Shown here: in pieces, positions 5,763 through 59,110 of the stretch
Layout: each line of letters begins with the position of its first letter
How positions within the stretch are numbered: position 1 is the stretch's first letter
DNA from: Octopus vulgaris
Lineage: Eukaryota
Reading direction: 5' to 3'
Length of the DNA stretch: 64,000 nucleotides
Assembly (NCBI GenBank): GCA_951406725.2
Contig: OX597816.1
Span: 96,472,001 to 96,536,000, forward strand
The notes under the pieces: generated by a model
What the model was told of the DNA's origin: nothing
Database searches by the model: none
What the model saw: the letters and a program-made list of their open reading frames with translations, nothing else
Position numbers and translations under genes: made by a program

Positions 5763-5879
5763 ATTGAAAGACTTCGCCAGGTGGTGCTATTAAGTTAGAC
5801 ATGGCCTGGGCCAATACTGGCCAAAACCTTTCTAAGCTATTCTAAGTTATATGTATATATATATATGTGTATGCATATA

Positions 5880-6100
5880 CTCTCTTTTACTTGTTTCAGT
5901 CATTTGACTGTGGCCTTTAGTCGAGCAAACCAACCCAGGACTTATTCTTTGTAAGCCTAGTACTTATTCTATCGGTCTGTTTTGCCGAACCGCTAAGTTA
6001 CGGGGACGTAAACACACCAGCATCGGTTGTCAAACGATGTTGGGAGGACAAACGCAGAGACACAAACACACACATACATATATATACATATATACGACGG
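5880..6100 (-). mobile_element. 3' portion of a SINE family also seen at 21170 and 34165, truncated where the RTE begins
   Basis: Ends in ...tatatacgacggg, the reverse complement of the (ccc)gtcgtatatat segment at ~21325; the RTE 5'UTR follows immediately. Confidence 0.55.
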
Positions 6101-21340: not shown

Positions 21341-22084
21341 TTTACTAGAGTAAGCACATAGATATTTGTAGCTGGATATGCGGTTGTTCAAGATGAAAAG
21401 AAAGAAAAGAATACAAACACAAGAACACATGAACACACAGAAACACATACACATACATATTTACCTGTACGCATTTACACGTATCTATCCATATACATCT
21501 ATGCATACAAAGACGCATAATCCATAGATGCGTACTTATAGGTACATACACCACATGGTATACATCAACGTAGTACAGGACAAAGACACATATGTAGCAC
21601 CACAATCATCCCTACAACAACCAACACAGTCGCCGATGTATTCATTTTTACGTAAGAATATCATAGTTGTGTGATACCATAAACAGTTGGAATCATGAAG
21701 GATTCGAGAAGGGAATTCAAAAGCATCTTCTTTTGTAATGACAGTAGTATATGATGGTAAAAATTGATTTATTTCCTATAATTCACTAAGAACTAATCAA
21801 CTTTATTCACAGATATCGTATCGGCTTTAGATATTGTAAACATCATTCAGCAGTCGATATATTTATTGAGATACGATAAAAATTACTTTCATCGTTGTTT
21901 CTGTGTCTTCCCTTTACAAAGGATCAAGCTTCTGGATTTCATGTTTCCTTTAACTTGCTCCTCTTCTTATTCACTCTCCTGGGGCCTCCAGCCCCATTTC
22001 CTATTATATAATAATTATATAACAATAATTACATAATAATAATAATGATGATGATGATGAAGATAATAATAATTATTATTATTA

Positions 22085-22535
22085 TAACCCTTTCTACTAA
22101 AGGCACAAGGCCTGGGATTTGGGGGAAGGGAAATAGTCGATTACATCGACCCCAGTGTTTCACTGGTACTTAATTTGTCGACTCCGAAAGAATGAAAGGC
22201 AAAGTTGACCGCGGTGTAATTTGAACTCAGGACGTAGCTACGGGCGAAATACTGCTAAGCATTTCTTCCAGCGTGCTAATGACTCTGCCAACTCGTCGCC
22301 TAAGTAATAATAATAATGGTAATCCTATCTATTATAGGCACAAGGCCTGGAATTTGTGGAAGGAGGACTAGTCGATTACATAGACCCCAGTATTTCACTG
22401 GTACTTATTTCATCGACCTCGAAAGGATGAAAAGTAAAGACGACCTCAGTGAAATTTGAACTCAGAACATAGCGACGGACGAAATGCCGCTAAGCATTTG
22501 CCCTGCGTGCTACTGATTCTGCCACCTCGCCGCCT
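22085..22535 (-). mobile_element. Two tandem minus-strand copies of the 12 kb SINE family
   Basis: Reverse-complement motifs tcgattacatcgaccccagt..ctggtactt..gaatgaaaggc..aatttgaactcag..gctaagcattt..gactctgcca occur twice, each flanked by (AAT)n. Confidence 0.75.
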
Positions 22536-39009: not shown

Positions 39010-39073
<64 letters not shown>

Positions 39074-39074
<1 letters not shown>

Positions 39075-41225
39075 TATGTTTGACTTTTGCTTTATATTTG
39101 TACAAGTTGGCTCCAAGTCTCACCCAGAGACCTCAAGAGACAACAGGGTTGGAAGTTCATGTTGTTGTTATGCCTAGTGTGCCATATATTTGGGGGGTGG
39201 GGATGTTGTACTAATGAATGTCTAAAAATAAAAAATTAAAAAAAAAAAAAAATTATGTTTGTTTTAAACCTTGAGATTACATAGAGAGTATTTTGCGTAG
39301 GATATGAGCAGTTCCCATGAGCACTATCTTTTGAACTTCTGCCATTTTTGGGTTTCCTGGTATCTGAGTTAGGTAGCTATTAGCCCCTTTTGCTATCATT
39401 CCCAGGGCACCTATGACAACAGGTATTGTTTTAGTCTTCAGCTTCCACATTTTGCTGATTTCTATTTCAAGATCTTTATATTTGCTCAGTTTTTGGTAGG
39501 TCTTGACAGATACGTTTATATCGATTGGGACAGTCATATCAATGAGGAGGCATGTTCTTTGTTTGAAGTTTTTCAATATGATGTCTGGCCTATTTGCATC
39601 TATCTTCCTGTCAGTTTGAATGGTGAAGTTCCAGAGGAGTGAGATGTGGTCATTTTCAAGCACTGGGGGTGGTTTGTGTTCCCACCAGTTTTTTTCATGG
39701 GGCAAATCCAGGTTTTTACAGATTACCCAGTGAATATATTGTGCAGCTCTATCGTGCCTGTTGAGATACTCTGTAGGCGCTAGAAGACTGCACTTGGAGA
39801 CCACATGGTCAATGGTTTCATTTTGTTGCTTGCATACACGACACGTTGGACTGCTTCTGATCTTTAATATGTTGGCCTGGTAGTTTCTTGTTGGTAGGCA
39901 TTGATCTTGAGCTGCTATGATAAACCCCTCTGTTTCAGATTTTAAGCCAGAGGCCATTAGCCATTGATGGGTCAGGGCTTTGTCGATATCTGCATTATTC
40001 GCTCTCTTTGGGTATTTGCCATAGAGAGGTTTTTCTTGCTATTTATTATTCAGAATATCTAAGGCCGCAGTTTTGGCACGGGTTTTCATGCGCCTAGCTT
40101 TTTCTGTGCTTGTTTCTTGTATATCTATCTCTAATTCCGAAATTGGTTGTATTCGGAATTCACTTAGATATTCCTTTGCCTGTTTTGTGACTGAGTATGA
40201 TGCTTTCTTGTTTTCATGTTTTGAGACAAGTTTTAGCATCCAGTCCTCAGAGTTTTTCAGGTAGGTGTCTAGGCCAATTGTAGCAATCTTCATTGTTATT
40301 GCCAGTTGCAAAAGACCACGGCCTCCCTCTTTTCTTGGCAGATAGAGTCGTTCTGTATCTGCCTTAGGGTGGTGCATTCTATGCATTGTCAACAGTTTCC
40401 TTATTTTTCTGTCGAGCTGACATATTTCAGTAATTGACCAGTTAACAATATTGAAACTGTAAGTCACGACTGGTATAGCTAATGCATTGATTGCTTCGAT
40501 CCTGTTTCTTGCATTCAGCTCTGTCTTGAGTATTGCTCTCACTCTTCGATAGCATTCTCTCCTGATCCTTTCCTTCATCTCTGAATGCCTTATTCCGTTC
40601 CCTTCAATTATCCCTAGGTACTTGTAGCTCTCCGCTGGGTCTAGTTCTTTTATGACATTCTGTTGGTCAAGGTTAACGTTAGATGTTTCTGTCATTTTTC
40701 CTTTGATAAAGGTAGCCTTTGCACATTTATCGAGGCCGAATTGCATTCTGATGTCGTCACTGAATTGTTTGACTATCGCTAGTAAGCCCTTGAGTTGTTC
40801 ATCATTTTTTGCAAAAGCTTTAAATCATCCATGTAAACGAGATGATTTATATTTTTATCAAACATTTTATACCCGTACTGCGCATCATTGAGCAGCTTTG
40901 AGAGAGGTATTAAGGATAAACAAAAGAGGAGTGGTGACAGTGAGTCACCCTGGAAAATGCCACACGAAATTTTTACATCACCAGCATTTAGGGATTCACT
41001 GTCACTGTTCAGAGTTAGTGTGGTTCTCCATGATCTCATACTTACAGTCAAGAAGTTTCGCAGAGTTGGTGCTATCTTATACATTTCAAGGCATTTCCTA
41101 ATCCAGCTATGTGGTAGGCTATCAAAAGCCTTTTTATAGTCTATCCAGGCTATTGATAAGTTTTTGTGTCGTTTGTGACAATCTTCTAAGATCATCTTAT
41201 TGATGAGTAGTTGGTCTTTACAGCC
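39074..41225 (-). mobile_element. R4/Dong-type RLE non-LTR retrotransposon, family A copy 1 (5'-truncated)
   Basis: GCKDQLL, WIDYKKAFDS, GIFQGDSLSP, YMDDLKL, CRVC..HVVSKC knuckle, RHD, RPDII..DMTVP, KLSKY; 3' end abuts (TAA)n 39009-39073. Confidence 0.92.
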
Positions 41226-41269
41226 GTCAAATAAGCTCCTTAATTGAATAAAATAGTATTATTACGCTG

Positions 41270-41303
<34 letters not shown>

Positions 41304-41371
41304 CATTATTATTATTATTATTACTATTATTATTATTATTACTATTGTTGTTGCTGTTGTTGTTGTTGTTT

Positions 41372-42090
41372 ATTTTTAATCAGCATGCTTGTTACAATCA
41401 ATTGCTGAAACACACCCAGCGTCCTAGGGCGAGTGAAGGATAAGAGATATTACAGTATAACGGAAAGCTTGGGGAGGGGTCGTGGCTGGGGCAGTAGTGA
41501 AATATCTTCATGTACAACACAGACATTTAAACTGATAGCGTTTTTCTAAGGATGGGGGCAGTAAATGTCAGCAAAATCTTTTAGATGTCTCTTAGACATG
41601 ATCTTCCTACAATGTTATCTAGATGTTTCTAACATCCCTTTTTTTATCATACCTAGGGCACCTACAACAACAGGAACAGATCTTGCTTTAAGATGCCACA
41701 TCTTTTGTATTTCAATTTCCAGGTCCTTATATTTTTCTTAATTTGTCAAATTCCTTTACAGATATACTTTTATCAGTGGGAACACTTACATCTATTAGTC
41801 AACAAGCATTTTCTTCCTCGACTTTAATAATCATGTCTGGTCGATTAGCTTAGATCTTCTGTCAGTGTTGACTGGAAAATCCCAGAGGATAGTGATATTT
41901 TTACCTTCAACGACTGGTTCAAAATGGTCTTCATATCAGTAAGTAGGTGTGCCGATTTTATAGTGTTTACATATCTTCCAATGTAAATACTGTCTTACCC
42001 TATCGTGCCAATTTTTTGTATTCGTTTGGTGTCAGCTTAAGACATCCCGAAATGAGGTTGTCTATTGTTTCGTCAAATGCGTCACAGAAT
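41372..42090 (-). mobile_element. R4/Dong-type family B copy 1 (RLE domain and 3'UTR)
   Basis: Homologous to 48296-49170; FCDAFDETIDNLIS, ILWDFPVNTD, RPDMI, VPVVVGALG. Confidence 0.8.
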
Positions 42091-42357
42091 CTTTTCGTCT
42101 GCCTTCTTGATTATTCGTGAGTCAAAGGGGCATGCAACATCAACTATATAGCATATGTAGTGCACCTTGTCCACCACCACTAGGACTGGTCTTTTATGGT
42201 CTAGCACCTGATCTGTTTGCATTGGAAAATCACACCACTCTCTGCAGTTCGTGCTCATGCCACATCTTGCCTTTCACTAGCCCCTACTATTCTCACACTT
42301 TCCAATGTAGCCCTTTCGCTACCTGGTTGCATCACCACAAATTGTAGTCGCTTGGGA
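42091..42357 (-). mobile_element. R4/Dong-type fragment of another family (C), RLE region
   Basis: Minus translation QVAKGLHWKV..WHEHE..DFPMQTDQVLDHKRPVLVVVDK..IVDVACPFDSRI; its 5' end abuts (TAA/CAA)n. Confidence 0.7.
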
Positions 42358-42382
42358 TTATTATTATTATTGTTGTTGTTGC

Positions 42383-42413
<31 letters not shown>

Positions 42414-42829
42414 CTTGTTCTTGTTGTTGTTGTGGCTGCTGCTGTTGTTGTTATTAATGTTATTGTCGCCATAGCTGGAGGTATGGTTTTGGAGCGCTGT
42501 AAGTTTATGGCCAATTCACTTGTTTTAAAAGGTTCTATACTGTATTTTGTTGTTTAAATCGTTTTTGCAAGGGGGTGGGTTGATGTTTGTTAACTAAACA
42601 TGTTGGGGGTTATAGAAACCTTTTTGTTTTCAAATTTCTTCGAAAATTAACTTCGAAGAAACTAAGCATTGAAGATGGCGACGAAAAGCGGGAGTGATGA
42701 AGGGAGTAGGGGGAGGATGAAAAGAAGAAGAAGAAGAAGAAGAAGAAGAAGAAGAAGAAGAAGAAGAAGAAGAAGAAGAAGAAGAAGAAGAAGAAGAAGG
42801 TGAAGAGGAGGTAGAAGTAAAGTCTTCCA

Positions 42830-43740
42830 CACTACATGAAAATTGTAGTAGCACGAAGATTTTTACATCTCTTAGTCGACCGTGAATAGGGTGGAGGGGT
42901 TGGCAATGTTCTTCAGAAAATGTCTGGATCTCGAGATACGGTCGGTCTTTATGCATCCTGAAGGTAAGTCGATGGTCCTAGACGTGAACGATAACGAAGA
43001 CACTATTTTAGACTGGTGGTAGTGTGCGCATCGACTGGTGAGGGGTAACCGGAGTTCTTCAGACGCCTGGAGGCCTTTCTAGGGACGTCTCGCTCTTTAG
43101 TGTTAGTGGGCGACTAGAACGCCATTTTAAATGCACGTGTGGATTGGGTGGGGCGAGCAGATGGGAAAGCCTCGCAAAACTGCTCAGTCGTTTTCAGCTG
43201 GCGGACAGGTTCAGACTGGATTTTCAGAACACTCCAGTGTGGACATGGGCAAACAGTGTAGGGTCATCCAGATGTTATCGTATTCTATAGGCCAGCATAG
43301 AGTGTCCACAGTTTGAATTCCTCAACAAACAGACCACAGATTTGTGATCTGCACAGTTGACCTAGGTAGGCTCTATAGGCAGGGACCCGGATAGTGAAAG
43401 CTAAACGCGTCCTTCCCTGTGCGTCAAGCTTTCAGAGACCGGCTTAGCAAGTTAGTCCATAGAAAGTTGACAGGTGTAATCGTCAATAACCTATGAATGG
43501 ATGGGGGCCTAAAACGTGCGGTTAGTGTAGAAGCTGTAGAATTTAACAGAGAACTAGCAATAGAGAAGACTAGAGTAGAAGGAAATCAGGCTATGAAATT
43601 AGAAGAGACACTCAGTAGAGACATAGCAACCTCTGGCAGCGAGATCGGTTCTGAACCAATTCTTCAACACCAAGCATTGTCAGAGCTAGGGTGCATGCTC
43701 TAAAGCAGGAGGGAACGAGAGCCGTTCGATGGGCCCGGGT
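42830..43740 (+). mobile_element. Decayed L1/Tx1-clade LINE APE region following (GAA)n
   Basis: LVLVGD*NAIL, QLADRFRLDFQNTPVWTW, TDHRFVIC, QGPG**KLNAS (GPGYWKLN-like), IVRARVHALKQEG. Confidence 0.7.
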
Positions 43741-43899
43741 GTGAAAATATGGCTCAAAAAGACTGGTAAAAAATGAAAAGATAGAACATCTACAAAAATC
43801 ATCAATACCTGGGACTGCAAGAGTGAAAATGTAGCCCTTCTCTTCTCTCTGTCAACTCGAATATGTAAACGTACCTTTTGTTCCAACAACACTATTAAA

Positions 43900-44228
43900 C
43901 GCACAACAAAAAGTTTGTTCCACATATATCCTCAAAGGGTTTACAAAATGGACCATGCAAAGTTTTCCCTTCAATCTATCTAACTCTCTCCCTTTGAATA
44001 TCATTCTTGTCCTTTTTTTCCTATTCCTCATTTGAACACCTGTTCCTTGTTCACTGTCTTTAATAGTTTCTCTGTGCTGACCTGTAAATATTCTAGTAGG
44101 CCTTTTCTTTCCATAAGTACACACACTTCCACAGCAATTGAGCTTCTTCCACCCTAGTCTCTCTTCAAGCACGACCGATTCATATTAGCTTTTCTATGGT
44201 GGGCTCTATGCATTGTCAACAGCTTTCT
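43900..44228 (-). mobile_element. R4/Dong-type post-RT fragment (family D)
   Basis: RKLLTMHRAHH..LKRD*GGRSSIAVEVCV, homologous to RKLLTMHRMHHPKAD..GGRGL of family A. Confidence 0.6.
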
Positions 44229-44599
44229 AAATGAAAACTCTCAGCTTATTTTGCTGGGTATAATGGAAATTATCAACTGCCCCCAGCCAGCAGACTAAGG
44301 TGATACTTGTTTACTGATCACGCTTCAATAAACATGCAGAGTATTCTTGCAGTCCCAGGTGTTGATGATTTTTGTAGATGTTCTATCTTTTCATGTGTAC
44401 CAGTCTTTTTGAGCCACATTGGTAGATAGCAATTTCCAAGCGCGCCAATCACTATTGATGTCACGTCCACTCTCTTTATTGCCCACATCCTGCATATTTC
44501 CGACTTCAATTCATCATAGTTGTTCAGTTTGTATTTCGCTTTTACTTCGATCCTCTTGTCATCAGGATATGCTATGCCGATTACCAGGCATGTTTTATC

Positions 44600-44601
<2 letters not shown>
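44229..44601 (-). mobile_element. R4/Dong-type family E 3' fragment (others at 49438-49920 and 57990-58850)
   Basis: KTCLVIGIAYPDDKRI..YDELKSEICRMW..IVIGALG; 3'UTR (tttgctgggtat.atggaaa..cagactaagg) shared by all three copies. Confidence 0.78.
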
Positions 44602-44656
<55 letters not shown>

Positions 44657-44668
44657 ATTATTATTATT

Positions 44669-45181
44669 GTGTGAGAGAGCAGCATACGACATCAAAATGA
44701 CAATGGCGTACAAATATACGAAGCCCAATTTCGTATCATGGCTACATATCTGGTAAGGGTACATCAGGCGCATGCATCACAGCCATGTCTAAGCGGCATG
44801 GCAACCTTATATCAAGAAAAAACAGCACTTGAATTTGTAGATGGAGACCAGTTAAAATTTTCTTCACGTCAATTAGCCCATCTTGCTCAAAAGGTCCCGG
44901 AATACGGATTGTTTAAGTATGATGAACGAAGCACCCATGTTTCCAGTGTTGAATTAATCAAACCCTAAAGAATGCATTTGAACACATAGCTGTGGTGATT
45001 CTCCACCGTGACTCCAAGCGCAAATGGCTAAGGTCAAGCAACTGACAAGGAAATATATAGTATTCAGCAGAGTATTTGTTGTAGCACATCTTTTACACGA
45101 AGAAAAATATGTTCTTGATAACACTTCCAATTACTTAAGATCAGCAAACATGAGACCAACTGCCTGGTATTATATTACGGC

Positions 45182-45185
<4 letters not shown>
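44669..45185. mobile_element. ~510-bp non-coding repeat X, copy 1, flanked by (ATT)n; copies at 47241-47706 and 51611-52066
   Basis: Three homologous copies all end in ..ctgcctggta.tgcatcagggcattt; no ORF; orientation uncertain. Confidence 0.8.
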
Positions 45186-45215
<30 letters not shown>

Positions 45216-45216
<1 letters not shown>

Positions 45217-47147
45217 TATGTTTGACTTTTGCTTTATATTTGTACAAGTTGGCTCCAAGTCTCACCCAGAGACCTCAAGAGACAACAGGGTTGGAAGTTC
45301 ATGTTGTTGTTATGCCTAGTGTGCCATATATTTGGGGGGTGGGGTGTTGTACTAATGAATGTCTAAAAAAAAAAAAGGTTTTTAAAAAATTTTTTTTAAA
45401 CCGAAAATTATGTTTGTTTTAAACCTTGAGATTACATAGAAAGTATTTTGCGTAGGATATGAGCAGTTCCCATGAGCACTATCTTTTGAATTTCTGCCAT
45501 TTTGGGGTTTCCTGGTATCTGAGTTAGGTAGCTATCAGCCCCTTTTGCTATCATTCCCAGGGCACCTATGACAACAGGTATTGTTTTAGTCTTCAGCTTC
45601 CACATTTTGCTGATTTCTATTTCAAGATCTTTATATTTGCTCAGTTTTTGGTAGGTCTTGACAGATACGTTTATATCGATTGGGACAGTCATATCAATGA
45701 GGAGGCATGTTCTTTGTTTGAAGTCTTTCAATTTGATGTCTGGCCTATTTGCATCTATCTTTCAGTCAGTTTGAATGGTGAAGTTCCAGAGGAGTGAGAT
45801 GTGGTCATTTTCAAGCACTGGGGGTGGTTTGTGTTCCCACCAGTTTTTTTCATGGGGCAAATCCAGGTTTTTACAGATTACCCAGTGAATATATTGTGCA
45901 GCTCTATTGTGCCTGTTGAGATACTTTGTAGGCGCTAGAAGACTGCACTTGGAGACCACATGGTCAATGGTTTCATTTTGTTGCTTGCATACACGACACG
46001 TTGGACTGCTTCTGATCTTTAATATGTTGGCCTGGTAGTTTCTTGTTGGTAGGCATTGATCTTGAGCTGCTATGATAAACCCCTCTGTTTCAGATTTTAA
46101 GCCAGAGGCCATTAGCCATTGATGGGTCAGGGCTTTGTCAACATCTGCATTATTTGCTCTCTTTGGGTATTTGCCATAGAGAGGTTTTTCTTGCCATTTA
46201 TCATTCAGAATATCTAAGGCCGCAGATTTAGCACGGGTTTTCATGCGCTTAGCTTTTTCTGTGCCTGTTTCTTGTATATCTATCTCTAATTCCGAAATTT
46301 GTTGTATTCGGAATTCACTTAGATATTCCTTTGCCTGTTTTGTTACTGAGTATGATGCTTTCTTGTTTTCATGTTTTGAGACAAGTTTTAACATCCAGTC
46401 CTCAGAGTTTTTCAGGTAGGTGTCTAGGCCAATTGTAGCAATCTTCATTGTTATTGCCAGTTGTAAAAGTCCACGGCCTCCCTCTTTTCTTGGCAGATAA
46501 AGTCGTTCTGTATCTGCCTTAGGGTGGTGCATTCTATGCATTGTCAACAGTTTTCGTATTTTTCTGTCAAGATTACATATTTCAGTAATTGACCAGTTAA
46601 CGATACTGAAACTGTAAGTCACGACTGGTATGGCTAATGCATTGATCGCTTCGATCCTGTTTCTCGCATTCAGCTCTGTCTTGAGTATTGCTCTTACTCT
46701 GCGATAGCATTCTCTCCTGATCCTTTCCTTCATCTCCGAATGCCTTATTCCTTCTCCTTCAATTACCCCTAGATACTTGTAGTTCTCTGCTGGGTCTAAT
46801 TCTTTTATGACATTCTGCTGGTCAAGGTTAACGTTAGGTGTTTCTGTCATTTCCCCCTTTGATAAAGGTAGCTTTTGCGCATTTATCGAGGCCAAATTGC
46901 ATTCTGATGTCATCACTGAATTGTTAGACAATCGCTAGTAAGCCCTTGAGTTGTTGGACATTTTTTGCAAAGAGCTTTAAAAAATCCATGTAAATGAGAT
47001 GATTTATATTTTTATCAAACATTTTATATTCGTACTGCGCGTCATTGAGCAGTTTTGAGAGAGGTATTAAGGCTAAACAGAAGAGGAGCGGTGATAGTGA
47101 GTCACCCTGGAAAATGCCACATGAAATTTTTACATCACCAGCATTTA
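45216..47147 (-). mobile_element. R4/Dong-type family A copy 2 (5'-truncated)
   Basis: ORFs 45432-45731, 45762-46931 and 46924-47289; near-identical to copy 1 including 3'UTR; (TAA)n on both sides. Confidence 0.92.
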
Positions 47148-47159
47148 TTATTATTATTA

Positions 47160-47241
<82 letters not shown>

Positions 47242-47701
47242 ACTAGGCACATGCATCACAACGAAATGTGTGTGAGATGGTGATCTCATATCAAGATAAA
47301 CAGCACATGATCTTGCAGGTGGGGTCCAGTTAGAATTTTCTTCTGGTCGAGCATCCCATCCCGCTTAAATGATCCCTGAATAAGGGTTGTTTAAGGATGA
47401 TGAACAAAACACCCATGTTTCCAGAGAGGAATAATTCAAACCCCAAAGAATCCTTCTCAACACATGGCTATGATGCTCCCCTCACTACTTCTGCTCGTGA
47501 TCAGAGATGCACATATCGTCAGCCACTAAGGGACATGCTCAACTGGTTATGGTCAAACAACTAACAAGCAAGTGTGTGGTATTGAGCAGAATATTTGCTG
47601 TAGTTCATCTTTTATACCAAGACAAAACAATGTACATGATAACACTTCTGATGAGTTAAGATCAGAAGCCATGAGAGCCACTGCCTGGTATTGCATCAGG
47701 G

Positions 47702-47752
<51 letters not shown>

Positions 47753-47753
<1 letters not shown>

Positions 47754-48212
47754 TTTTTTTTCTTCTTTCAAATTTGCTTCCATTTCTTGCCGAGTGTCTT
47801 CCCGACTCCTAGGGCAAAGAAACTCATAGTATACATTGGTAGGCCATTAAACCAAACTCAGTAGTTCGTTCATTTTTTTTTTTTTTAAAGTTAAATTAAA
47901 ATACATGAGCAGCAACAGTTCTCACATCGACAATGCTCTTCTCAATACGTGTGATGTACCAGTTAAGACAATCTTTTGCACTTCTTGCAGGGATGGTAAG
48001 CCAGGGATCATTCTCATATAATTTTCGGTTCCCTTCTTGATCATTCCTAGTACTCCTACGATCACTGGTATTGTAACCGCCTTGAGATGCCACATTTTCT
48101 CAATTTCAATGAGTAGGTCTTTATATTTTCTGAGCTTGTCAAACTCTTTCGCTGAGATATTATGATCACAGGGGATGCTCATGTCGATCAATAAGCAAAC
48201 TTTATTGTTTGC
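47753..48212 (-). mobile_element. R4/Dong-type family F 3' fragment
   Basis: LIDMSIPCDHNISAKEFDKLRKYKDL..PVIVGVLG; (TAA)n on both sides. Confidence 0.85.
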
Positions 48213-48295
<83 letters not shown>

Positions 48296-49170
48296 GTCAT
48301 TTACTTTTAGTCTGCATGTTTGATGCAATCACTTGCCGGGGCACACTCAGCGCCCTAGGGCAAGTGAAGGTTAAGAGTTGTTGAAATATAGCTGAAAGCC
48401 TGGGGAGGGGAAGTAGCGAAATATCTCCATGTAATACAACACAAACATTTACATTGATAGGGTTTTTCTAAGGATGTGGGCAGTACTTGTTAGCACAATC
48501 TTTTGGATTTCCTTGAGACATGGTTCTCCAGGGATATTGCCTAGGTGTTTCTGACACCCTTTTTTATCATACCTAGGGCACCTACAATAACAGGAACAGT
48601 TTTTGTTTTAAGATTCCATATCTTTTGTATTTCCATTTCCAGGTCCTTATATTTACTAAGTTTGTCAAATTCCTTTAAAGATATCAGTGGGGACGCTTAC
48701 CTCTATTAGTCTGCAGGTATTTTCTTCCCTGTCTTTAACAATTATATCTGGTCGATTAACCTTGATCGTTCTGTCAGTGTTGACTGGAAAATCCCAGAGG
48801 ATGGTGACATTTTTACTTTCAACAACTGGCTGAGGATGATGTTCATACCAGTTAGCAGGAGTGCCGAATTTGTAGTGTTTACATATCTTCCAATGTATAT
48901 ACTGTCCTACCCTATCGTGGCGATTTTTGTATTCGTTTGGTGTCAGCACAGGACATCCCGAAACGAGGATTATTTCGTCAAATGTGTCGCAGAATCTGCA
49001 TTTAGGGTCAGTACCCTTTCGGAGAACGCTAGCCTGGCAATTTCTGGTAAACAAGCTTTGATCTTGTGCTGTCAGTATGAAGCCTTCAGTCTCTGCTTTC
49101 AATCCTGAACTCTTCAGCCACTGATGGGCTGCTTCTTGGTCTACATCAGCATTTTGGCTTCGGAGAATAT
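48296..49170 (-). mobile_element. R4/Dong-type family B copy 2
   Basis: KAETEGFILTAQDQ, CRFC, RHDRVGQYIHW, RPDII; (TAA)n on both sides. Confidence 0.87.
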
Positions 49171-49174
49171 ATTG

Positions 49175-49234
<60 letters not shown>

Positions 49235-49435
49235 GATCTGGAAGAATCGTTAGCACGTCATGTCCAATGCTTAGCAGCATTTCGTCCGTCTTCACGTCCT
49301 GAGTTCATACAGTACCGTGGTAGACTTTGTCTTTCATCTTTTCGGGGTCGATAAATTAAGTAGTAGCTGAATATTGGACTTCACCCTTCTCCTAAATTAT
49401 TGGCTTTGAGCTAAAATTTGAAACCATTATTATTA
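49235..49435 (+). mobile_element. tRNA-type SINE (12 kb family) with short (ATT) tail
   Basis: agaatcgttagcacg..tgcttagcagcatttcg..gagttca..tttcatcttttcggggtcgataaattaagta. Confidence 0.7.
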
Positions 49436-49437
49436 TT

Positions 49438-49920
49438 TCATAAAAACTCTCTGCTTATTTTGCTGGGTATGATGGAAAGTGTCAGCTGCCCACAGCCCTG
49501 CAGACTAAGGTGATACTTGTCTACTGTTCATGCTACAAGAGCCCAGCAGAAAACTGATGCAGTCTCAACAAATGATGATTTTTGTAGGTGTTCTATCTTT
49601 TGATTTGTACCAATCTTTTCGAGTCATGTTGGTAGTTGAGTACTGATTATTCCAAGCGCGCAAATCACTATTGGTATCACATCCACTCTCTTCATTGCCC
49701 ACAATCTGCGTATTTCCCCTTCAATTCATCATAGTTGCTCACATTTTAATTCGCTTCCTTTTCGATCCTGTTGTCACCGGGATATTCTATGCCGATTAAC
49801 AAGCAAGTTTTTCCTATTCATCACAACAAAGTTAAGTTTCCGATGCCTAATCTGATGGTCACGCTGAATTATTGCAGCCCACAGGATTATGCAATCCTCA
49901 TTCTCAATAAATCCTTTTGG
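49438..49920 (-). mobile_element. R4/Dong-type family E copy 2
   Basis: PKGFIENEDCIILW..DHQIRHRK; family E 3'UTR; 5' end abuts (TAA)n. Confidence 0.78.
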
Positions 49921-49934
49921 ATTATTATTATTAA

Positions 49935-50010
<76 letters not shown>

Positions 50011-50026
50011 CATCATCATCATTATT

Positions 50027-50239
50027 AAGGTGGTGAGTTGGCAGAATTGTTAGCACGCCGGGCAAAATGCTTCGCGGTGTTTCTTCTGTCGCTGAATTCT
50101 GAATTCAAATTCTGCCGAGGTCGACTTTGCTTTTCATCCTTTCGGGGTCGGTAAATTAAATACTAATGAGACACTGGGGTCGATGTATTCTAATATCCCC
50201 CTCCCAACAAACTTTAGGTCTTGTGTCTATAGTAGAAAG

Positions 50240-50240
<1 letters not shown>
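50027..50240 (+). mobile_element. Full-length tRNA-type SINE with long (ATT)n tail (50241-50306)
   Basis: aaggtggtgagttggcagaattgttagcacgccgg..gaattcaaattctgccgaggtcgactttgc..cctttcggggtcg..agtagaaagc. Confidence 0.8.
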
Positions 50241-50306
<66 letters not shown>

Positions 50307-50309
<3 letters not shown>

Positions 50310-50800
50310 TAGTTTTATTTTTATAGCGTGCTTTCACTTCACTACCGAGCGGATCTCTGTGCGCTTTGGGTATGTGCTGTGGTTTGCTGTGATGCTCTTG
50401 TGGTTACTGTATTGAAAGTGTTTTGCGTAGGATGTGTGAAGTGCCTAGTAGTGCAATTTTCTGTATGTTATATATATTTGTAAGTCCTGGTGTTTTTGTT
50501 ATGTAATTCTGAACATTTTTTTTCATACCTAATGCGCCTACTATGATAGGAATTGTTTCTGTTTTTAGATTCCATATACGAGTTACCTCTATTTCCAGGT
50601 CTTTGTATTTTGAAAGTTTCTCCATTTCTTTTAGAGACACGTTGTCATCTGCTGGTATTGATACATCAATTAGAAAGCATTTTTTTCTTCCTGATCTCTG
50701 ACAACTATATCTTCTAATGGGGATGGCTTTGGTTTTCACGAGTCCCTCTTTTGTTTGGAGCACTGTCTGCCATTTATTTATAGTGTGTCTTATATATTTT
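50307..50800 (-). mobile_element. R4/Dong-type family H, internally deleted (RT piece fused to RLE piece)
   Basis: KWQTVLQTKEGLVKTKAIPIRR joined to DIVVRDQ..CFLIDVSIPADDNV..KLSKYKDLEIE..PIIVGALG. Confidence 0.8.
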
Positions 50801-50827
50801 ATAATAATAATAATAATAATAATAATA

Positions 50828-50892
<65 letters not shown>

Positions 50893-50896
50893 CATT

Positions 50897-51610
50897 GCTA
50901 TATGTTTGACTTCTGCCTTGTATTTGTACTAGTTGACTCGAAGTCTCACCCAGAGACCTCAAGTTAGATGTTCAAGTTGGTGTTATGCCTAGGGTGTCAT
51001 ATATTTGGTTTTATATATAGTATTGTTCTAGAGAATGTTTAAGAAAACATGACAAAGTTATAAGTTTGTTTTAAACTATGGCATTACATATACAATTTAT
51101 TATGAAGGATATGGGAAGTTCCCATGAGTACTATCTTTTGAAAATCTGACATTTTTGGGTTTGATTTCAGGCCTAGGTAGGAATCAACCCCTTTTTCTAT
51201 CATTCCTAGGGCACCTATGACAACTGGTATTGTTTTAGTCTTGAGATTCAACATTTTGCCAATTTCTATTTCAAGCTCTTTATATTTGCTCAGTTTTTGG
51301 TAGGTTTTAACAGATACAGTTATGTCCATTGGGACAGTCATGTCAATGAGGAGGCATGATTTTTGTTTGAAGTCTTTCAATATAATGTCTGACCTATTCG
51401 CATCTATCTTTCTGTTAGTTTGAACGGTGAAGTTCCAGAGGAGAGGAGTGAGATGTGATCAATTTCAAGCACTGGAGGTGGTTTGTGTTACCACAAGTTT
51501 TTTTCATGGGGAAGGTCCAGGTTTTTTGCAAATTACCCAGTGAATATATTGTGCTGCTATATCATACCTGTTAAGATACTCTGAAGACGCAAGAAGACAG
51601 TATGATCAAT
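50897..51610 (-). mobile_element. R4/Dong-type family A, diverged subfamily 3' fragment
   Basis: KDFKQKSCLLIDMTVP..KLSKYKELEIE; A-type 3'UTR (gtctcacccagagacctcaag). Confidence 0.85.
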
Positions 51611-52066
51611 ATGCCATCAAAATGACACTGGGGTAAATTATACAATGCCCAGTTTACTCATCCTGACTACCCGTCTGATATTTGTACACAAGGCACATGC
51701 ATCACACCCATTTGCGCGATACAGTGATATCATATCAAGATAAATAGCGCATGACCTTGCAGGAAGGCGCAGTTAGAATTTTCGTCAGATCGAGTAGCCC
51801 AAACTAATCAAAAGATCCCTGAATAAAGCTATGATGCTCCCCCACTATTTCTGCTCGTGATCAGGGATGCACATATCGTCATCCACGAAGGGACATGCTC
51901 AACTGGTTATGGTAAAACAACTGACAAGCAAATCTGTGGTATTGAGCAGAATATTTGTGGTAGCCCATCTTTTATACCAAGACAAAACAATGTACATGAT
52001 AACACTTCGAATCAGTTAAGACCAGAAGTCATGAGAGCCACTGTCTGGTACTGCATCAGGGCATTT

Positions 52067-52097
<31 letters not shown>

Positions 52098-52324
52098 CCA
52101 TCACCCCCCCACCACCACCATCCTCCTCCTCCTCCTCATCATCATCATCATTATTATTATTGTTATTATTGTTGTTATTATTGTTATTATTGTTGTTGTT
52201 GTTGTTGTTGTTGTTATTATTATTATTATTATCATTATCATCATCATCCTCATTATTTTTTTCCTTCATTCTTCAAATGAGTGTTTTATTATTACTATTA
52301 TTATTATTGTTGTTATTGTTGTTG

Positions 52325-52370
<46 letters not shown>

Positions 52371-54224
52371 GTTTTTTCCTTCTTTCTTCAAATTTTGTTC
52401 CGTTTCTCGCCGAGTGTTTCCATACACCTAGGGCAGAAAAGAGCATTGTATGCATTCCCAGATTACACGCGCAAATTCACAGATTAAATATGTAACTAAA
52501 AATTAATAAATAAATAAATTCATGGATCGATGTTATTTTCACAGCGAGTGTTCTTCTCAGTACATGAGCCGTTCCACCTAATACGATTTTTTGCACTTCC
52601 TGTAAGGATGGTAAGCCTGGAGTCATTTTCAAATAGGGTTCAGTGCCATTTTTTTATCATTCCTAGAGATCCTACAATCACTGGTACTGTAGTCGCCTTG
52701 AGATACCACATTTTTTCAATTTCCATTAGCAGGTCTTTATATTTACTAATCTTGTCAAATTCTTTCGCCGCTATATTATGATCACATGGAATACTCATGT
52801 CAATTAATAAACACATCCTTTTTGTCTGATCTTTTATAATGATATCCGGTTTATTGGCTTTATAGTCCTGTCGGTCTGCACGGGGAAGTCCCATAGCATC
52901 GACACATTTTCTCCCTCAGTCACAGCTTCAGGATGATGTTTATACCATTTGTCAGCGGTTTTGATTTTATAATGCCGACATATTGTCCAGTGTAAATACT
53001 GGCCGACTCTGTCATGTCTTGCTTTATATTCTGCCGGTGCTAAGACTCTACACCCTGAGATTAGGTGGTCTATTGTTTCAATCTCATCGTTACAGAATCG
53101 ACATTTTGAGTCAGCTCCATTTTTCATCACATTGGCTTGATAGTTCCGGGTAAATAAACTTTGGTCTTGAGCAGCTAATATGAAACATTCACTCTCTGCT
53201 TTTAGCCCTGAACTTCGTAACCATTGGTGCGTGTGTTTCTGGTCGACATCAGCTTGTCGGGCCACATACTTGCCATGGAGAGGTTTCTGTTCCCATCTGC
53301 TAGCTAAATTTTCATGTGCTTTTGTCTTCGCAATTAATTTTATTTTCTTTGCAGCTGCAGTTGGCGCAATTCCTTCAGCCTGCTCAATCTGGCGGGTATC
53401 TAAGAGATCAGCAGCGAATTTTTTGCTCTCTTTGAGAATAGAGTGAAGTTTTTTAGGTCTTTCATGTTTTTCAACAAGTTTTAGCATCCAATCGTTGGTT
53501 GCTTCAAGGTATTTGGCCAATCCGATTGTGGTGGTTTTGTATGTAAGTTCAAGCTGGATCAAACCTCGACCTCTCTGAGCTCTGGGAAGGTAAAGGCGAT
53601 CCACGTCTGCCTTTGGATGGTGCATCTTATTACAAGTCAGTAGCTTGCGGATTTTCCTGTCAATTTTCATTATTTCAGTAGTATTCCAGTTAAGCACATT
53701 GAAGCTATAAAGAACAACTGGTACTGCTAAGGAATTTATGGCTAAAACCTTATTATATGCATTCAGCTCAGACTTCAGGACTGCTCGAACTCTTCTATAA
53801 CATTCTTTCCTAACCTTCTCTTTCATGCTTGCATGCTGGATACCAGAGCCTTCATTTATTCCTAGGTATTTATAGGTTTGTTCCTGCTCAAGTTCCTTTA
53901 TTACTATTTCGACATCTAATTCGATTGAACTAGACTTTACCAATTTCCCTTTCTTAAAAGTGGCTTTGGCACACTTTTCAAGGCCAAACTCCATCCCGAT
54001 ATCATCACTGAATCCTTTCACAGTATGTAATAATCCTTCAAGCATTTCATCATCTTTGCCATATAGCTTTAAGTCATCCATATAAAATAGATGGCTTATT
54101 TTCTTGTTGTCAATTTTGTAGCCATATCCTGTTCTATTCAGTTCACTTGAGAGTGGTATTAGTGCTATGCAGAATTATCCTGTTCTATTCAGTTCACTTG
54201 AGAGTGGTATTAGTGCTATGCAGA

Positions 54225-54226
<2 letters not shown>
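52371..54226 (-). mobile_element. R4/Dong-type family G (F-related), 5'-truncated
   Basis: ORF 52834-54081: YMDDLKL, KYLG, GRGL, CRFC..HLISGC, RHD; then KPDII..DMSIP in 52640-52894; (TAA)n on both sides. Confidence 0.92.
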
Positions 54227-54319
<93 letters not shown>

Positions 54320-56859
54320 TCGTCATCAATATCTGTGATGAAGACAGAGAAACGGCAGGATCGCTAGCATGCTGAACAAAATGCTTAATAGTAGTTCGTC
54401 CATTTTTACGTTCTGCGCTCAAATTCTGCCGAGGTTAACTTTGCTTTTAGATTAATGTATACTTTTCAAGCTTGACTGAATCAATAACTCACGAGGCAGA
54501 TGACGTTTTTTTGAATTCAGTTATAATATCGTGACATGGATGCTAGTGAAGTTATAGCAATATATAGTATTAGAACTGCAATGTAAGGAACACTACAACA
54601 GACAATGCTCGTGGACTCAGTTGATCTTTACGGTTATTGATTTCCATTTTAATTTACATTCTCTGGAATAAGTGCGAAACTGCGGTGACATAAATTTGAG
54701 TAACTTAATACAGATTTGAATCTTTCTGCCTGATTTGACTTATTTTCATTGGTAGCCAGCCGCAGTAAACTGAGTTTCAATGTAAGGGTTTGACTTCAAT
54801 CATTCGACCTAATCATCTATGTATTTCATGCTTCTGACAAAGATTTGAATGTAACAGATATATTAGAGAAATAATTATATACGAAATACTTTCTTCATCA
54901 GCTATCCTGCATTCTTTAGCGACAGTTTAACTAGCTGTGGGTATCGTTAGTGACAGTTTAACTGGCTGTGGGTGTCGTTGATTTAATTGAAATACAATGT
55001 ATATTTGATTACATTATACAATATGTTCTTCCATCCTTTTTAAAGACGATAGGGCGTGATTTGAGTGAAATTTGACTATTGGTTTTGGCAGTTAGAAAAC
55101 ACCTCGAGACTTCCTCGTTGACTCGCTTTCAAATGCAGTAAGCCATTGAAATCTATAACTTATAAAACCGATGGCTTCAAAACCGTGTATCACAATTAAT
55201 CCTTGCTTCTCGATAAAAAAGAATAAAAACATTTATCAAATGAAAAATATTGAAAATTAAAAAGAAAATAATTTCATTGAATTTAAAATAGAAATCTTAA
55301 GAAAGAGATGAGATCTATCAACTAACTGTTCAACCAGTTACTGATTAGGTTGATTAAGTTAAAGAATCCATTATCAATGAACATTCTATATGGCAACCAG
55401 TTTAAATCATAATTTCGGAAGGAAAATATTTCAGAAAGGAGAAAAGATTTTTTTTTTTTCTAAAGCATATATTTTTTTCACCTTGTTTCTCAGAAAACCT
55501 TTCATCTCAGCATTTTCATTTCACATGCGAAAAGAAAAAAGATTAAAAAAAAATAATTCTGCGCCATTCAAGTTTATTGTGAGATCAGCAAATGGTGGCA
55601 ATAAGGAAGTAGTCATGAATAAAAGATGAAGATATTTTTTATAGAGGCGAGTGATTGCAGGCGATGTTCAAACCATTCACTTTCGTGTCCAACATGTTGA
55701 ATAAAATTGAAATTTTAGTTAGAAAACGAAAGCGCTTCCTGTTTCCGAAACGGCTACATAATGTTGACATTAATGCAGGCCAATGTTGTGGTAATGCGTG
55801 TTGAAAATCTAAATTTGTTAAACAAAGTTGAAGATTCGGAGATTGTGAAAAGTTCACGGATATGCCCAAAAGCCCAATTCTTACAATTTATTCTGTGGTT
55901 TCGTCTACAATACTGCTGCTGGTCGATAAAGTATTAGTTCATTAAAAGGTATACTCAAGCTATGACTTCATACAGATACGGCGCTACCCAACCACAAAGA
56001 ACACTGACAATGAACAAGACAATACAATTCACAAATAAGACGACTTTGATATTGAATATTTACAAATAATACCTTAACTGTTGAAAGCGCTAGCTTGAAT
56101 ACCCCAAATAATAATATTGTCACTATCACTCTTCACCAAATGAGTATCTTTCCACTACTTTGCATACCAGTAGCAACTTTGATGGAGAAGTAAGCACTAG
56201 AGAAATTCTGAATAGAATCTTCTCACATAAAAGTCAGCGTTGGGTCGAGGCACACCACAAAAGACGGTACCTCAGTATCTGATAACTACATAAACAAGCA
56301 AATAAAACATGGCCTCCTAAAAACTGGAGTTGAAATCCAAGCACGTGGAACTAGCAGGTAGTTAATCATAAATAAAAATTCCATTTATTGTGTTATCTGT
56401 TTCCTGACTGAAATATATCTTTTATTTTATATATAATATTATATTTCTTTAATTATTCTATAAAATTGATTTTATTCTAAAAACTTCACCTTCTCGTAAT
56501 TCCATTGTTGAATGTGTGAAGGCGGTTTTAATAGCTAAGTTAATCGTTATAAATATTTGTGGACAACTTTACCTTTCATTCTATCGGGGTCGACAGATAG
56601 GTATTTTGAGGTAATCAGCCTGCTCACACCACTCGACATTACTGGCTTCCTACTAAAATTATAAAGGATTTATTATTATTGATATTGCAGTTGAAAGGGA
56701 GGTAAGACAGTAGAATCTGCGCAATACTGGCCTTACTCTTTGACTTCCGAGTTCAAATTCATCGTAGTTGTTCTCTTTTTCTTTCTTTTCCACTTCAATC
56801 CTGTTTATGTTATTATTTATGTTATTGTTTATGTTAATTACCCGGCATGTTTTATTTTA

Positions 56860-57750
56860 TTTTCTGTTCACTACAGCAACGTCAGATTTTCGATGTTTTA
56901 TCTGCTGGTCATATCGTATTTATTACATCCCACAGGATTTTGCAATCCTCATCATCAGTAACTCCATCTGAGAGTTGCTTATGTCACGTCTTCGAGCTCT
57001 CTAGGCCGTAATTTCCACAAAGCTCCCAATGGATTATTCTTGCAGCTTTGTGGTGTCGCCTTTTGTATTCACGTTGTGTTAATTTCGGGCACTCACTAAC
57101 AATGTGGCACGCTGTTTCACCCCTATCACCACATGTACCTCATTTGTCGCTATCAGTTGTTTTATCAATTCTGCACTTCACACTTTTTGTCCCCAGTGCT
57201 TGTTCTTGTACCGTACATATAATTGCTTCTGTTTCACTGCTCTGTATGCATAGCCACCAGCCTTCTGTATCTGTATTTGTGCTTGTGTCTCTTGCAAACT
57301 GACCGTATATATATTTTTTTCCTTTCCAAACCATTTCTGCTTTTCGTTATTTTTCTCCCTCTTTCAATTCCCCTTTCTCGATTCAGTTATTAGTTTTGAT
57401 TATGCCAGACTTCGTAATCATCATCAATGGTTCCACGACATACTTACATAACACTCTAAACTATTTTCTTCTGATTCAGCACAATGCTGACAGCTGATCA
57501 GTCCCCACCCCCCGCCATTTTCTCTGGCCAGGTACAACCGATCAGTGTCACTTTTAGGGTGAAACGCTCAGTACAATGTCAATAATTTTCGTGTCTTCGT
57601 AACCATAGTTGATTTTCCTTCTGCCAGTTTACGATTCCAGCTCCATACCTAAGTGATGGTATCGCCCATGTTTTTACCGCTTAAAATTGATTCTAAGTGT
57701 TCGGAAATACACTTTCTTCAGCTGTTCTTTCATTTCCTTCTCCGTGATGA
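56860..57750 (-). mobile_element. Old, decayed R4/Dong-type fragment (E-like)
   Basis: WLCIQSSETEAIICTVQEQAL, TCGDRGETACHIVSECPKL..EYKRRH..IIHWELC, KILWDV. Confidence 0.72.
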
Positions 57751-57989
57751 TTGAAAAGTAGTATGCCAAAATACATACTACTTCAAATTATCCGTGAAAA
57801 GAAGATATTTGATTCTGAGTAATTTACTTGAACTTATATTCCAGATTCACTTTCCTAAACCCTAAGGTCAGAGGGATCGGGTTAAGTACAAAAACCAACG
57901 GAGATAAACAATTTCCTGGGAAAATCTGCGTCTCACATCATTATTGTTGTTATCGTCGTCGTCGTCGTCGTCATCATCATTGTCATTAT

Positions 57990-58850
57990 GTGATGAAAGC
58001 TCACAGCTCATTTTTGCTGGGTATGATGGAAAGTGTCAGCTGTCCACAGCCAGCAGACTAAGGAGACACTTGTTTACTGGTCATGCTTCAAAAACCCTAC
58101 GAAGAATTCTTGCAGTCCCAAGCAATGCTGATTTTTGTAGCTGTTCTACCCTCATACTTGCACCAATCTTTTGCATCCATGTTAATAATTGATGCTGATA
58201 CTACCAAGTGCACCAATTATTATTGGTATCCCATCTACTCTCCTCATTGACCACAACCTTCATATATCCCACTTTAAGTCGTCATAGTTGTTTGTTTTTA
58301 TTTCTTTCACATAGATCCTGTTGTCACCGGGGCATGCTATGCTCATTATCATGCATTTTCTTTCTTTTTTATTCAGCACAACGATGTCCGGTTTCCTATG
58401 TCTGGTCAGGTGATCACAATGGATCATTGTGTCCCACAAGATTTTGCAATTCTCATTCTCGGTGACTCCTTCTGGGTTTTACACATACCACGCCTTTGCT
58501 CTTTGGAGGCCGTGATTTCCACAGAGCTCCCAATGGGTCGTTCTTTCCACATTATCATGGCGTCGTCTGTATTCGCGTTGTGCCAATTTCGGACATTCGC
58601 TAACGATGTGCCATAGCGTTTCAATCCTCTCACCGCATATTCTGCATTTGTTGCTGTCGGTAATGTTGTCTACTCTACACTTCATATAGTTGGTTCTGAA
58701 TGCTTGTTCTTGAGCTGCGCATATGTGTGCTTCTGTCTCTATCTTCAGGCCACTCCTCCTCATCCATAGCCACCGGTCTTCTGTATGTCTTGGCATTCAC
58801 ATCTCTTGCAAACTGACGGTACATTTTCTTTTCCATCCACGCCTTTCCTT
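57990..58850 (-). mobile_element. R4/Dong-type family E copy 3
   Basis: WLWMRRSGLKIETEAHICAAQEQA..CRICGERIETLWHIVSECPKLAQREYRRRHD; family E 3'UTR. Confidence 0.82.
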
Positions 58851-58869
58851 TTTTGGGGGTTCATTCGCA

Positions 58870-59110
58870 AGCCGGGGAAATAGTTAGAAGCATTTCTTCC
58901 TTACTCATTATGTGTTCTGAGAACAAATTCTTCCGAAGTTGACTTTGCTTTACATCCATTCAGGATCGATAAAATGTTCTGAGAACAAATTCTTCCGAAG
59001 TTGACTTTGCCTTACATCCATTCAGGATCGATAGAATGAAGTACCAGTTAAGTACTGCAATTGATGTAATCGATGCCCTCACATCACGAAACTGCTGTTG
59101 TTTTAATGAT
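58870..59110 (+). mobile_element. SINE (12 kb family) with a 62-bp internal tandem duplication
   Basis: tgttctgagaacaaattcttccgaagttgactttgc.ttacatccattcaggatcgata at 58913 and 58975. Confidence 0.7.

What the first reader, a model, noticed from the sequence alone, without database searches (positions are those of the whole stretch)
39109..58068. Covarying 3'-terminal bulged stem-loop shared by otherwise unalignable R4/Dong 3'UTRs
Seen (element sense, ~30-45 nt before the 3' end): B2 48332-48364 CTTGCC-CTA-GGGCGC-TGAGT-GTGCCC-C-GGCAAG; A 39111-39139 CTCT-TGA-GGTCTC-TGGGT-GAGACT-T-GGAG; F 47787-47817 TTGCC-CTA-GGAGTC-GGGAA-GACACT-C-GGCAA; G 52408-52435 TGCC-CTA-GGTGT-ATGGAA-ACACT-C-GGCG; E 58034-58068 TGTCTCC-TTA-GTCTGC-TGGCT-GTGGAC-AGCTGACA; H 50343-50372 TACC-CAA-AGCGCA-CAGAGA-TCCGCT-C-GGTA. 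The architecture recurs (outer stem, 3-nt bulge ending in A, 5-6 bp inner stem, 5-6 nt loop, usually a 1-nt bulge) while the stem sequences differ with compensatory changes; E has the weakest outer stem. Established: R2 and stringent LINEs recognise 3' RNA structures. Inference: this is the cis template-recognition signal of these elements. I know of no description of it, and it could matter for RNA-templated insertion tools.
Basis: partly seen in the sequence, partly recalled or inferred. Interest (0 to 1): 0.85.

Follow-up and report, generated by a model that had tools for sequence, protein, structure and literature searches.

The report
Conserved 3' hairpin of Dong retrotransposons
Dong/R4-like retrotransposons that insert into TAA repeats carry a small hairpin 30-60 bases from their 3' end whose base pairs covary across very different families, and it is likely the RNA tag their reverse transcriptase binds to choose its template, a kind of signal known from other retrotransposon groups.

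Summary
Confirmed and extended. The six hairpins lie at the stated places on the minus strand, at the 3' ends of truncated RLE-type non-LTR elements stacked in (TAA)n; five more lie in the window. The motif is: outer stem closed by C-G, 3-nt bulge (YNA), 6-bp inner stem opened by G-Y, 5-nt NGGNW loop, 1-nt bulge. Ten families of this genome give 88% pairing and 13 of 15 pairs with double changes. A model trained on them finds the hairpin in 15 of 20 families from other collections (controls 2 and 1 of 20). In a tree-aware test the ten best of 666 column pairs are all proposed pairs. Its place is tied to the tail (32-58 nt), not to the stop codon (-6 to 160). G-U outnumbers A-C 42 to 13, pointing to sense RNA. 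Against: folding energy is ordinary, young families tolerate a stem mismatch, within-family selection is not significant, and no function was tested. Bulged 3' stem-loops are known for L2, R1, RTE, Tad1 and plant L1; ten searches of an open-access library found none for R4/Dong. A new variant of a known kind.

The parts
39106..39144 (-). 3' hairpin, family A (element about 39073-41271)
   Evidence: ORF homology
41398..41436 (-). 3' hairpin, family B subfamily (element about 41340-42356); third inner pair A-U where B2 has G-C
44269..44307 (-). decayed 3' hairpin, E-type element (about 44225-44600), no tail
   Evidence: (E 0.22)
44669..45183 (-). N1, non-coding element between AAT runs; decayed copy; family carries a variant hairpin 66 nt before its 3' end
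45248..45286 (-). 3' hairpin, second family A copy (element about 45216-47144)
47241..47704 (-). N1 copy cut at its 3' side just before the hairpin
47783..47821 (-). 3' hairpin, family F (element about 47753-48212); A-A mismatch in inner stem
48329..48367 (-). 3' hairpin, family B (B2; element about 48296-49176)
   Evidence: z -3.76
49478..49517 (-). 3' hairpin, E-type element (about 49438-49920)
50338..50377 (-). 3' hairpin, family H (element about 50307-50800), 6-nt loop
50934..50966 (-). 3' hairpin with shortened outer stem, older A-type element (about 50891-51605)
51611..52066 (-). N1 copy with internal deletion
52403..52440 (-). 3' hairpin, family G (element about 52371-54226)
58032..58070 (-). 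3' hairpin, family E (element about 57990-58860)
39010..54318 (.). array of (TAA)n runs (TTA on + strand) that separate the elements: target and tail

Best explanation
The motif is a covarying stem-loop at a fixed distance from the 3' end of R4/Dong-like retrotransposons, and it likely forms in the element's RNA and is likely the cis signal that the element's own RT-endonuclease binds to select and position its template for target-primed reverse transcription at (TAA)n sites. Shown: the hairpin, its covariation, its place, the protein domains, the TAA flanks. Inferred: the protein would read the conserved faces (C-G/YNA/G-Y internal loop and the loop G) while stems drift freely; the 32-58 nt unpaired spacer would carry the 3' end to the RT active site, where it would prime on nicked TAA repeats; the internal loop would act as a hinge, as tested for eel UnaL2; the likely binding surface is the basic, conserved helix just before RT motif 0 (the NTE-1 position in R2), by analogy only.
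For: G000 families: 88.0% of 150 cells paired, 13 of 15 pairs with double changes, slid controls 32-47%; RNAalifold gives the same structure unprompted. Held-out: 15 of 20 non-G000 families at p<=0.01 against 300 shuffles; reverse complement 2 of 20 and coding region 1 of 20 at p<=0.05; pairing-only score 12 of 20. Infernal with structure: 18 of 19 held-out hits at E<1 are the 3' hairpin, sequence-only model 3 hits. Held-out alignment 85.7% paired, 15 of 15 pairs with double changes. Tree-aware G-test on 25 families (protein identity 18-85%, median 38%): 7 of 15 pairs at E<0.05, top 10 of 666 all proposed. Distance to tail 32-58 nt (SD 6.8, n 23) versus stop codon -6 to 160 (SD 42, n 25); G-U 42 versus A-C 13. 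162 of 178 tailed G000 3' ends match a family hairpin within 10 mismatches without gaps. The one full-length A copy lacking it is unique in G000. Tested analogues: PMC1636434, PMC10499050 (passages read).
Against: No binding, probing or transposition data. 5 of 20 held-out families fail (L101, L102, L105, L162b, L217). Folding z-scores are weak, and the MFE often pairs part of the internal loop. The commonest forms of F, G and H each keep one mismatch in the inner stem. Shared versus single variants within families: p 0.15 and 0.06. Alignments were put in register on the structure, and the tree-aware null is home-made, not R-scape. The held-out search covered only the last 130-150 nt, which bounds the tail distance. 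The structure model meant to test the NTE-1 analogy never finished.
Confidence: 0.72

Rival explanations
1. The hairpin is a real RNA element but acts in 3'-end formation, stability or export of the transcript (elements are probably read through from neighbours in the array and need a defined 3' end), recognised by a host factor rather than the RT.
For: It also predicts a fixed distance to the 3' end and sense-strand pairing. AATAAA-like words sit in the spacer of some families (H, B). Conserved bulge and loop bases across distant families could reflect one conserved host protein.
Against: In the LINEs where it was tested, the like-placed bulged hairpin is bound by the element's protein and needed for retrotransposition (PMC1636434, PMC5135761, passages). 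The AATAAA-like words are not present in all families (not counted).
Confidence: 0.17
2. The hairpin works in translation (termination, readthrough or ribosome hand-over that gives cis preference).
For: It overlaps or abuts the stop codon in 5 of 25 families (X, Z, L107, L113, T3; in X and Z the bulge is the stop codon).
Against: Distance from the stop runs from -6 to 160 nt, six times more variable than distance to the tail.
Confidence: 0.05
3. The hairpin acts at the DNA level (cDNA or cruciform) or is a by-product of RT template switching, not a selected RNA structure.
For: Weak folding energies; one copy shows a rearrangement at the hairpin.
Against: G-U 42 versus A-C 13 favours the sense RNA; the reverse strand scores at background; fixed 3x1 internal loop and loop G across distant families; deletions are not enriched in the hairpin, 13 versus 9, p 0.52.
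Confidence: 0.04
4. Chance hairpins picked by eye.
For: A pairing-only descriptor with G-U scores 10 of 12 or more at wrong places in AT-rich UTRs.
Against: Held-out tests and controls.
Confidence: 0.02

Closest known systems
3' stem-loop of stringent LINEs: eel UnaL2, zebrafish ZfL2-1/ZfL2-2 (L2), SART1 (R1), also reported for RTE, Tad1 and plant L1 (PMC1636434, PMC5135761, PMC3747384; passages read)
   Same: Near the 3' end, before a short repeat tail; 5-nt G-containing loop (GGAUA in UnaL2, NGGNW here); asymmetric internal loop about 4-6 bp from the loop; compensatory changes with variable stems.
   Different: Those are APE-type clades; this is an RLE-type clade. Internal loop here is 3x1 with C-G and G-Y closing pairs, not a single bulged C plus U-U. 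It lies 32-58 nt from the tail. Function is tested there, not here.
R2 3'UTR core (P1, J0/1, J1/2, P2; 43-nt 'R2 tag'; PMC10499050, passages; pseudoknot in A-clade R2, PMC12503042, passages)
   Same: RLE-type element, homologous protein (nearest solved structures, E 1e-29); a core of about 40 nt with variable stems and conserved unpaired A.
   Different: R2 uses two stems joined by a single strand, or a pseudoknot, and its structure changes across lineages (PMC13188248, passages); here one compact hairpin of nearly fixed geometry.
R4/Dong clade elements (Dong of B. mori, DongAg, DongBg; PMC7998251, PMC3812793, PMC3774820; passages)
   Same: RT plus REL endonuclease, no N-terminal zinc finger, (TAA)n target.
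   Different: Known RNA structure of this clade in the papers read is the 5' HDV-like ribozyme; no 3' structure is mentioned in the passages retrieved.

Membership tests
R4/Dong clade | single long ORF with RT | tested here: met
   open frames of 1313-1316 codons in 3 of 3 fetched copies; RVT_1 E 2.9e-27
R4/Dong clade | C-terminal CCHC knuckle and PD..D/E.K restriction-like endonuclease, no APE | tested here: met
   invariant C, C, H, C, PD and K columns in alignment A1; zf-RVT weak hit, no APE family; nearest PDB chains are R2 proteins. The motif names are recalled.
R4/Dong clade | no N-terminal zinc finger | tested here: met
   0 of 58 full-length homologues have a C2H2-like pattern in the first 350 aa; no such Pfam hit in family A
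R4/Dong clade | diverged N-terminal SANT/Myb-like domain (PMC7998251) | tested here: inconclusive
   W[ST] motif in 53 of 58 homologues and in family A, but no Pfam hit
R4/Dong clade | (TAA)n target | tested here: met
   elements are flanked by AAT runs on both sides
R4/Dong clade | 5' HDV-like ribozyme (PMC3774820) | not tested
   no Rfam hit in window 38500-60000, where all copies are 5'-truncated; full-length 5' ends were only looked at
R4/Dong clade | phylogenetic grouping with named Dong/R4/Rex6 references | not testable with these tools
   no named reference among the 120 listed homologues
stringent-LINE 3' stem-loop | stem-loop near the 3' end with 5-7 nt loop and asymmetric internal loop 4-6 bp away | tested here: met
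   loop 5 nt in 21 of 25 families, 4 or 6 nt in 4
stringent-LINE 3' stem-loop | compensatory changes with conserved loop/bulge bases | tested here: met
   7 of 15 pairs E<0.05; middle loop G in 24 of 25
stringent-LINE 3' stem-loop | shared by a non-autonomous partner | tested here: inconclusive
   N1 folds a variant hairpin, 18 of 18 majority pairs standard, but is missed by R1, scores p 0.07-0.57 and shares no sequence with sampled UTRs
stringent-LINE 3' stem-loop | needed for protein binding and retrotransposition | not testable with these tools
   needs experiment
R2 3'UTR core | two stems joined by J1/2, or a pseudoknot | tested here: not met
   one nested hairpin by RNAalifold; no non-nested pair among the ten best covarying pairs; only the 40 hairpin columns were examined

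The most novel reading that the evidence does not exclude
R4/Dong elements across animals share one ancient 39-nt RNA tag of fixed geometry that alone makes any RNA a template for insertion into (TAA)n; the non-coding N1 element, with no sequence homology to any sampled family, became mobile by presenting a look-alike of that tag, so recognition is by shape and the tag is portable.
Probability: 0.3. Interest if true: 0.78.

Novelty: new variant of a known kind. Interest (0 to 1): 0.6.

Why it matters
It gives the R4/Dong clade, for which I found no described 3' signal, a defined and testable cis element: 39 nt, with named invariant positions and natural compensatory variants ready for mutagenesis. 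R2's template signal varies between lineages; this one keeps its geometry over proteins only about 38% identical, and resembles the hairpins of APE-type LINEs, which bears on whether stringent hairpin recognition is ancestral in LINEs. Family A has many near-identical copies with intact frames, so a matched protein and RNA exist for biochemistry. Use for gene insertion is speculative: the (TAA)n target is dispersed, not a single safe site.

Tried and rejected
Rfam: 7 weak matches, none at a hairpin or above a gathering score. Pairing-only descriptor: too permissive in AT-rich UTRs, replaced by trained models. Whole-end folding z-scores: 1 of 13 below -2. Shared-versus-single variant test in 7 families: not significant; same for N1, p 0.17 (the second-helix register in that script was wrong and is not used). 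Deletion enrichment in the hairpin: none. The first protein tree took the neighbouring element's protein for rows Y and L162b; redone without the five hairpin-negative families. MAFFT misplaced two rows in A5 and one (L095) in A6; A6 was counted as it stood and the row was re-gapped. Viral collection: nothing with A1, P0110 or P0003, one locus with A2; so the insect Dong lineage itself was not tested. Plasmids: no match. Sequencing runs: no RNA holder listed; contigs laid on the A 3' end say nothing on expression. Earlier findings: none.

Full report
Setting. The window lies in a 2.8-Gb AT-rich assembly. From 39 to 58 kb the minus strand holds 5'-truncated non-LTR elements separated by (TAA)n runs. 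They encode RT, a zinc knuckle and a restriction-like endonuclease. The first look found 78,568 candidates for the family A C-terminus in the assembly; the 150 scored were 99-100% identical, and three fetched copies have open frames of 1313-1316 codons. The nearest solved structures are R2 proteins. Absence of N-terminal zinc fingers, a conserved W[ST] motif and the TAA target fit R4/Dong as described in PMC7998251 (passages read); placement against named references could not be tested.

Observation. The six strings are at the stated places. A covariance model of ten families ranks all 11 RLE 3' ends of the window first (E 1.5e-8 to 0.22); this is partly by construction, as the families were in the training set.

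Families in the same genome. Four protein searches and one DNA search supplied loci. I chose one natural copy per family, the one closest to the column majority; Y and Z rest on single copies. MAFFT put the ten in register. RNAalifold predicted the same 15 pairs: 88.0% of 150 cells pair, 13 of 15 pairs show double changes, no shuffle of 500 reached the covariation score, slid registers give 32-47%. Of 178 tailed 3' ends, 162 match a family hairpin without gaps; most of the other 16 show small insertions or deletions or decay.

Held-out test. 80 metagenome loci, 12 genome-collection loci and 1 viral-contig locus encode relatives. With default filters the structured model gave 22 hits at E<=10 in 321 kb, 17 at the 3' hairpin and 5 elsewhere; the sequence-only model gave 2. 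With filters off on 27 of these 93 loci plus two G000 loci, 18 of 19 held-out hits at E<1 were the hairpin, against 3 hits for sequence only; T3 copies were missed. I then scored all 20 distinct held-out families with a usable 3' region (L207, cut by its contig end, and decayed single copies of T1-T3 were left out): 15 of 20 at p<=0.01, controls 2 of 20 and 1 of 20. L101, L102, L105, L162b and L217 fail; by eye L101, L105 and L217 look like decayed or variant forms, which I do not count. The 15 positives pair at 85.7% with double changes at 15 of 15 pairs; they were selected by the model, so that figure leans upward.

Phylogeny-aware covariation. On 25 families and a tree from their endonuclease domains (identity 18-85%, median 38%), a G-test with a parsimony-based null gave E<0.05 for five inner and two outer pairs, and the ten best of 666 column pairs are all proposed pairs. 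The closing pairs barely vary (C-G 22 of 25; G-C 16, G-U 8, A-U 1) and so cannot covary. Unpaired constraints: first bulge base a pyrimidine in 25 of 25, third A in 22, middle loop G in 24, the base before it G in 20. A mismatch at the second outer pair (C-C four times, C-A once) marks E, E2, Y, L110 and L108, which form one branch (support 0.82).

What it does. Three observations point to an RNA signal tied to the 3' end: distance to the tail 32-58 nt against -6 to 160 nt from the stop codon, G-U 42 against A-C 13, and background scores on the opposite strand. In five families it overlaps or abuts the stop codon. A full-length A copy without the hairpin occurs once in the assembly, so it shows no spread, but one case proves little. 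In contigs of four other runs laid on the A 3' end, many loose ends lie just 5' of the outer stem, and the only listed variant inside the hairpin falls on a mismatched position; a weak hint. A conserved basic stretch precedes RT motif 0 in 75 aligned homologues and motif 0 aligns with R2; that this stretch equals R2's RNA-binding NTE-1 helix (PMC10499050) is analogy, since the structure job did not finish. Against: weak folding energies, one inner-stem mismatch in the commonest F, G and H forms, non-significant within-family tests, no functional data.

A possible partner. N1, a 558-nt non-coding element, has a fixed 3' end and variable 5' ends; of 34 copies with intact 3' end in 30 loci found by DNA search, 32 have an AAT run 3' and 25 also 5'. 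It folds a hairpin with 12 outer pairs, a GGGUA loop and one extra bulged A, 66 nt from its end; its four commonest variants keep pairing, but the test is not significant and the models miss it. I count it as suggestive only.

Literature. Ten searches of an open-access library returned no paper describing a 3' structure for R4/Dong; I saw listings and abstract starts, and keyword passages of PMC3774820, PMC9115989, PMC4640811, PMC3747384, PMC1636434, PMC7998251, PMC12503042, PMC13708176, PMC13188248, PMC10499050, PMC3812793, PMC13580325 and PMC5135761; no whole text or supplement was read. The term 'R4' alone cannot be searched, and subscription papers (Kojima and Fujiwara 2004, Burke 1995, the Fell et al. 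survey and its supplements) and Repbase notes were not seen, so a prior mention is possible. The class is known: PMC5135761 gives the stringent-LINE consensus as a 5-7 nt loop with a bulge 4-6 bp away, and PMC1636434 shows loop G and bulge are needed in UnaL2.

Verdict. A real, conserved, covarying RNA hairpin of R4/Dong-like elements; likely the template-recognition signal (0.72); a new variant of a known kind; interest 0.6.

Noticed in passing
window 44669-45183, 47241-47704, 51611-52066 (-); L071:1933-2490, L218-L247: N1: abundant 558-nt non-coding element inserted in (AAT)n with fixed 3' end and 5' truncations; no similarity to the family A ORF or sampled UTRs; likely a non-autonomous partner. 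Its first 65 nt can by eye be drawn as nested pseudoknot stems (untested).
   Followed up: partly
L028/L032/L204 (G000:C8:18002014-18002044): Full-length family A copy with an open frame whose hairpin is replaced by a short AAT-rich piece; unique in the assembly.
   Followed up: yes
L031:30-130, L033:50-150: 5' ends of full-length A copies start after AAT runs with differing extra bases; a short GCAA-capped hairpin followed by CGAA recalls P4-J4/2 of HDV-like ribozymes (recalled, not tested).
   Followed up: no
window 49231-49425, 50011-50240, 54319-54500, 22084-22300: A short, very common SINE-like repeat, also flanked by AAT/ATT runs; two copies scored lack the hairpin. Its orientation and partner were not worked out.
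   Followed up: partly
window 3524-9785 (+): APE-type LINE remnants (Exo_endo_phos and RVT_1 hits); no hairpin hit below E 1 near them.
   Followed up: no
L217:2501-4795: A viral-collection contig carries a distant RLE element (35% identity) with a hairpin-like fold 83 nt from a weak tail; not significant (p 0.19).
   Followed up: partly
L205-L216; P0083: Several prokaryote MAG contigs hold Dong-like elements with AAT tails, probably animal DNA binned into the MAGs.
   Followed up: no
P0061, P0120: Two homologues carry an OTU-like protease domain (N-terminal in P0061), a feature recalled for other RLE clades.
   Followed up: no
window 54125-54227 and 58913-59038: Exact or near-exact tandem duplications of 51 and 62 bp, the first at the 5' junction of element G.
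   Followed up: no
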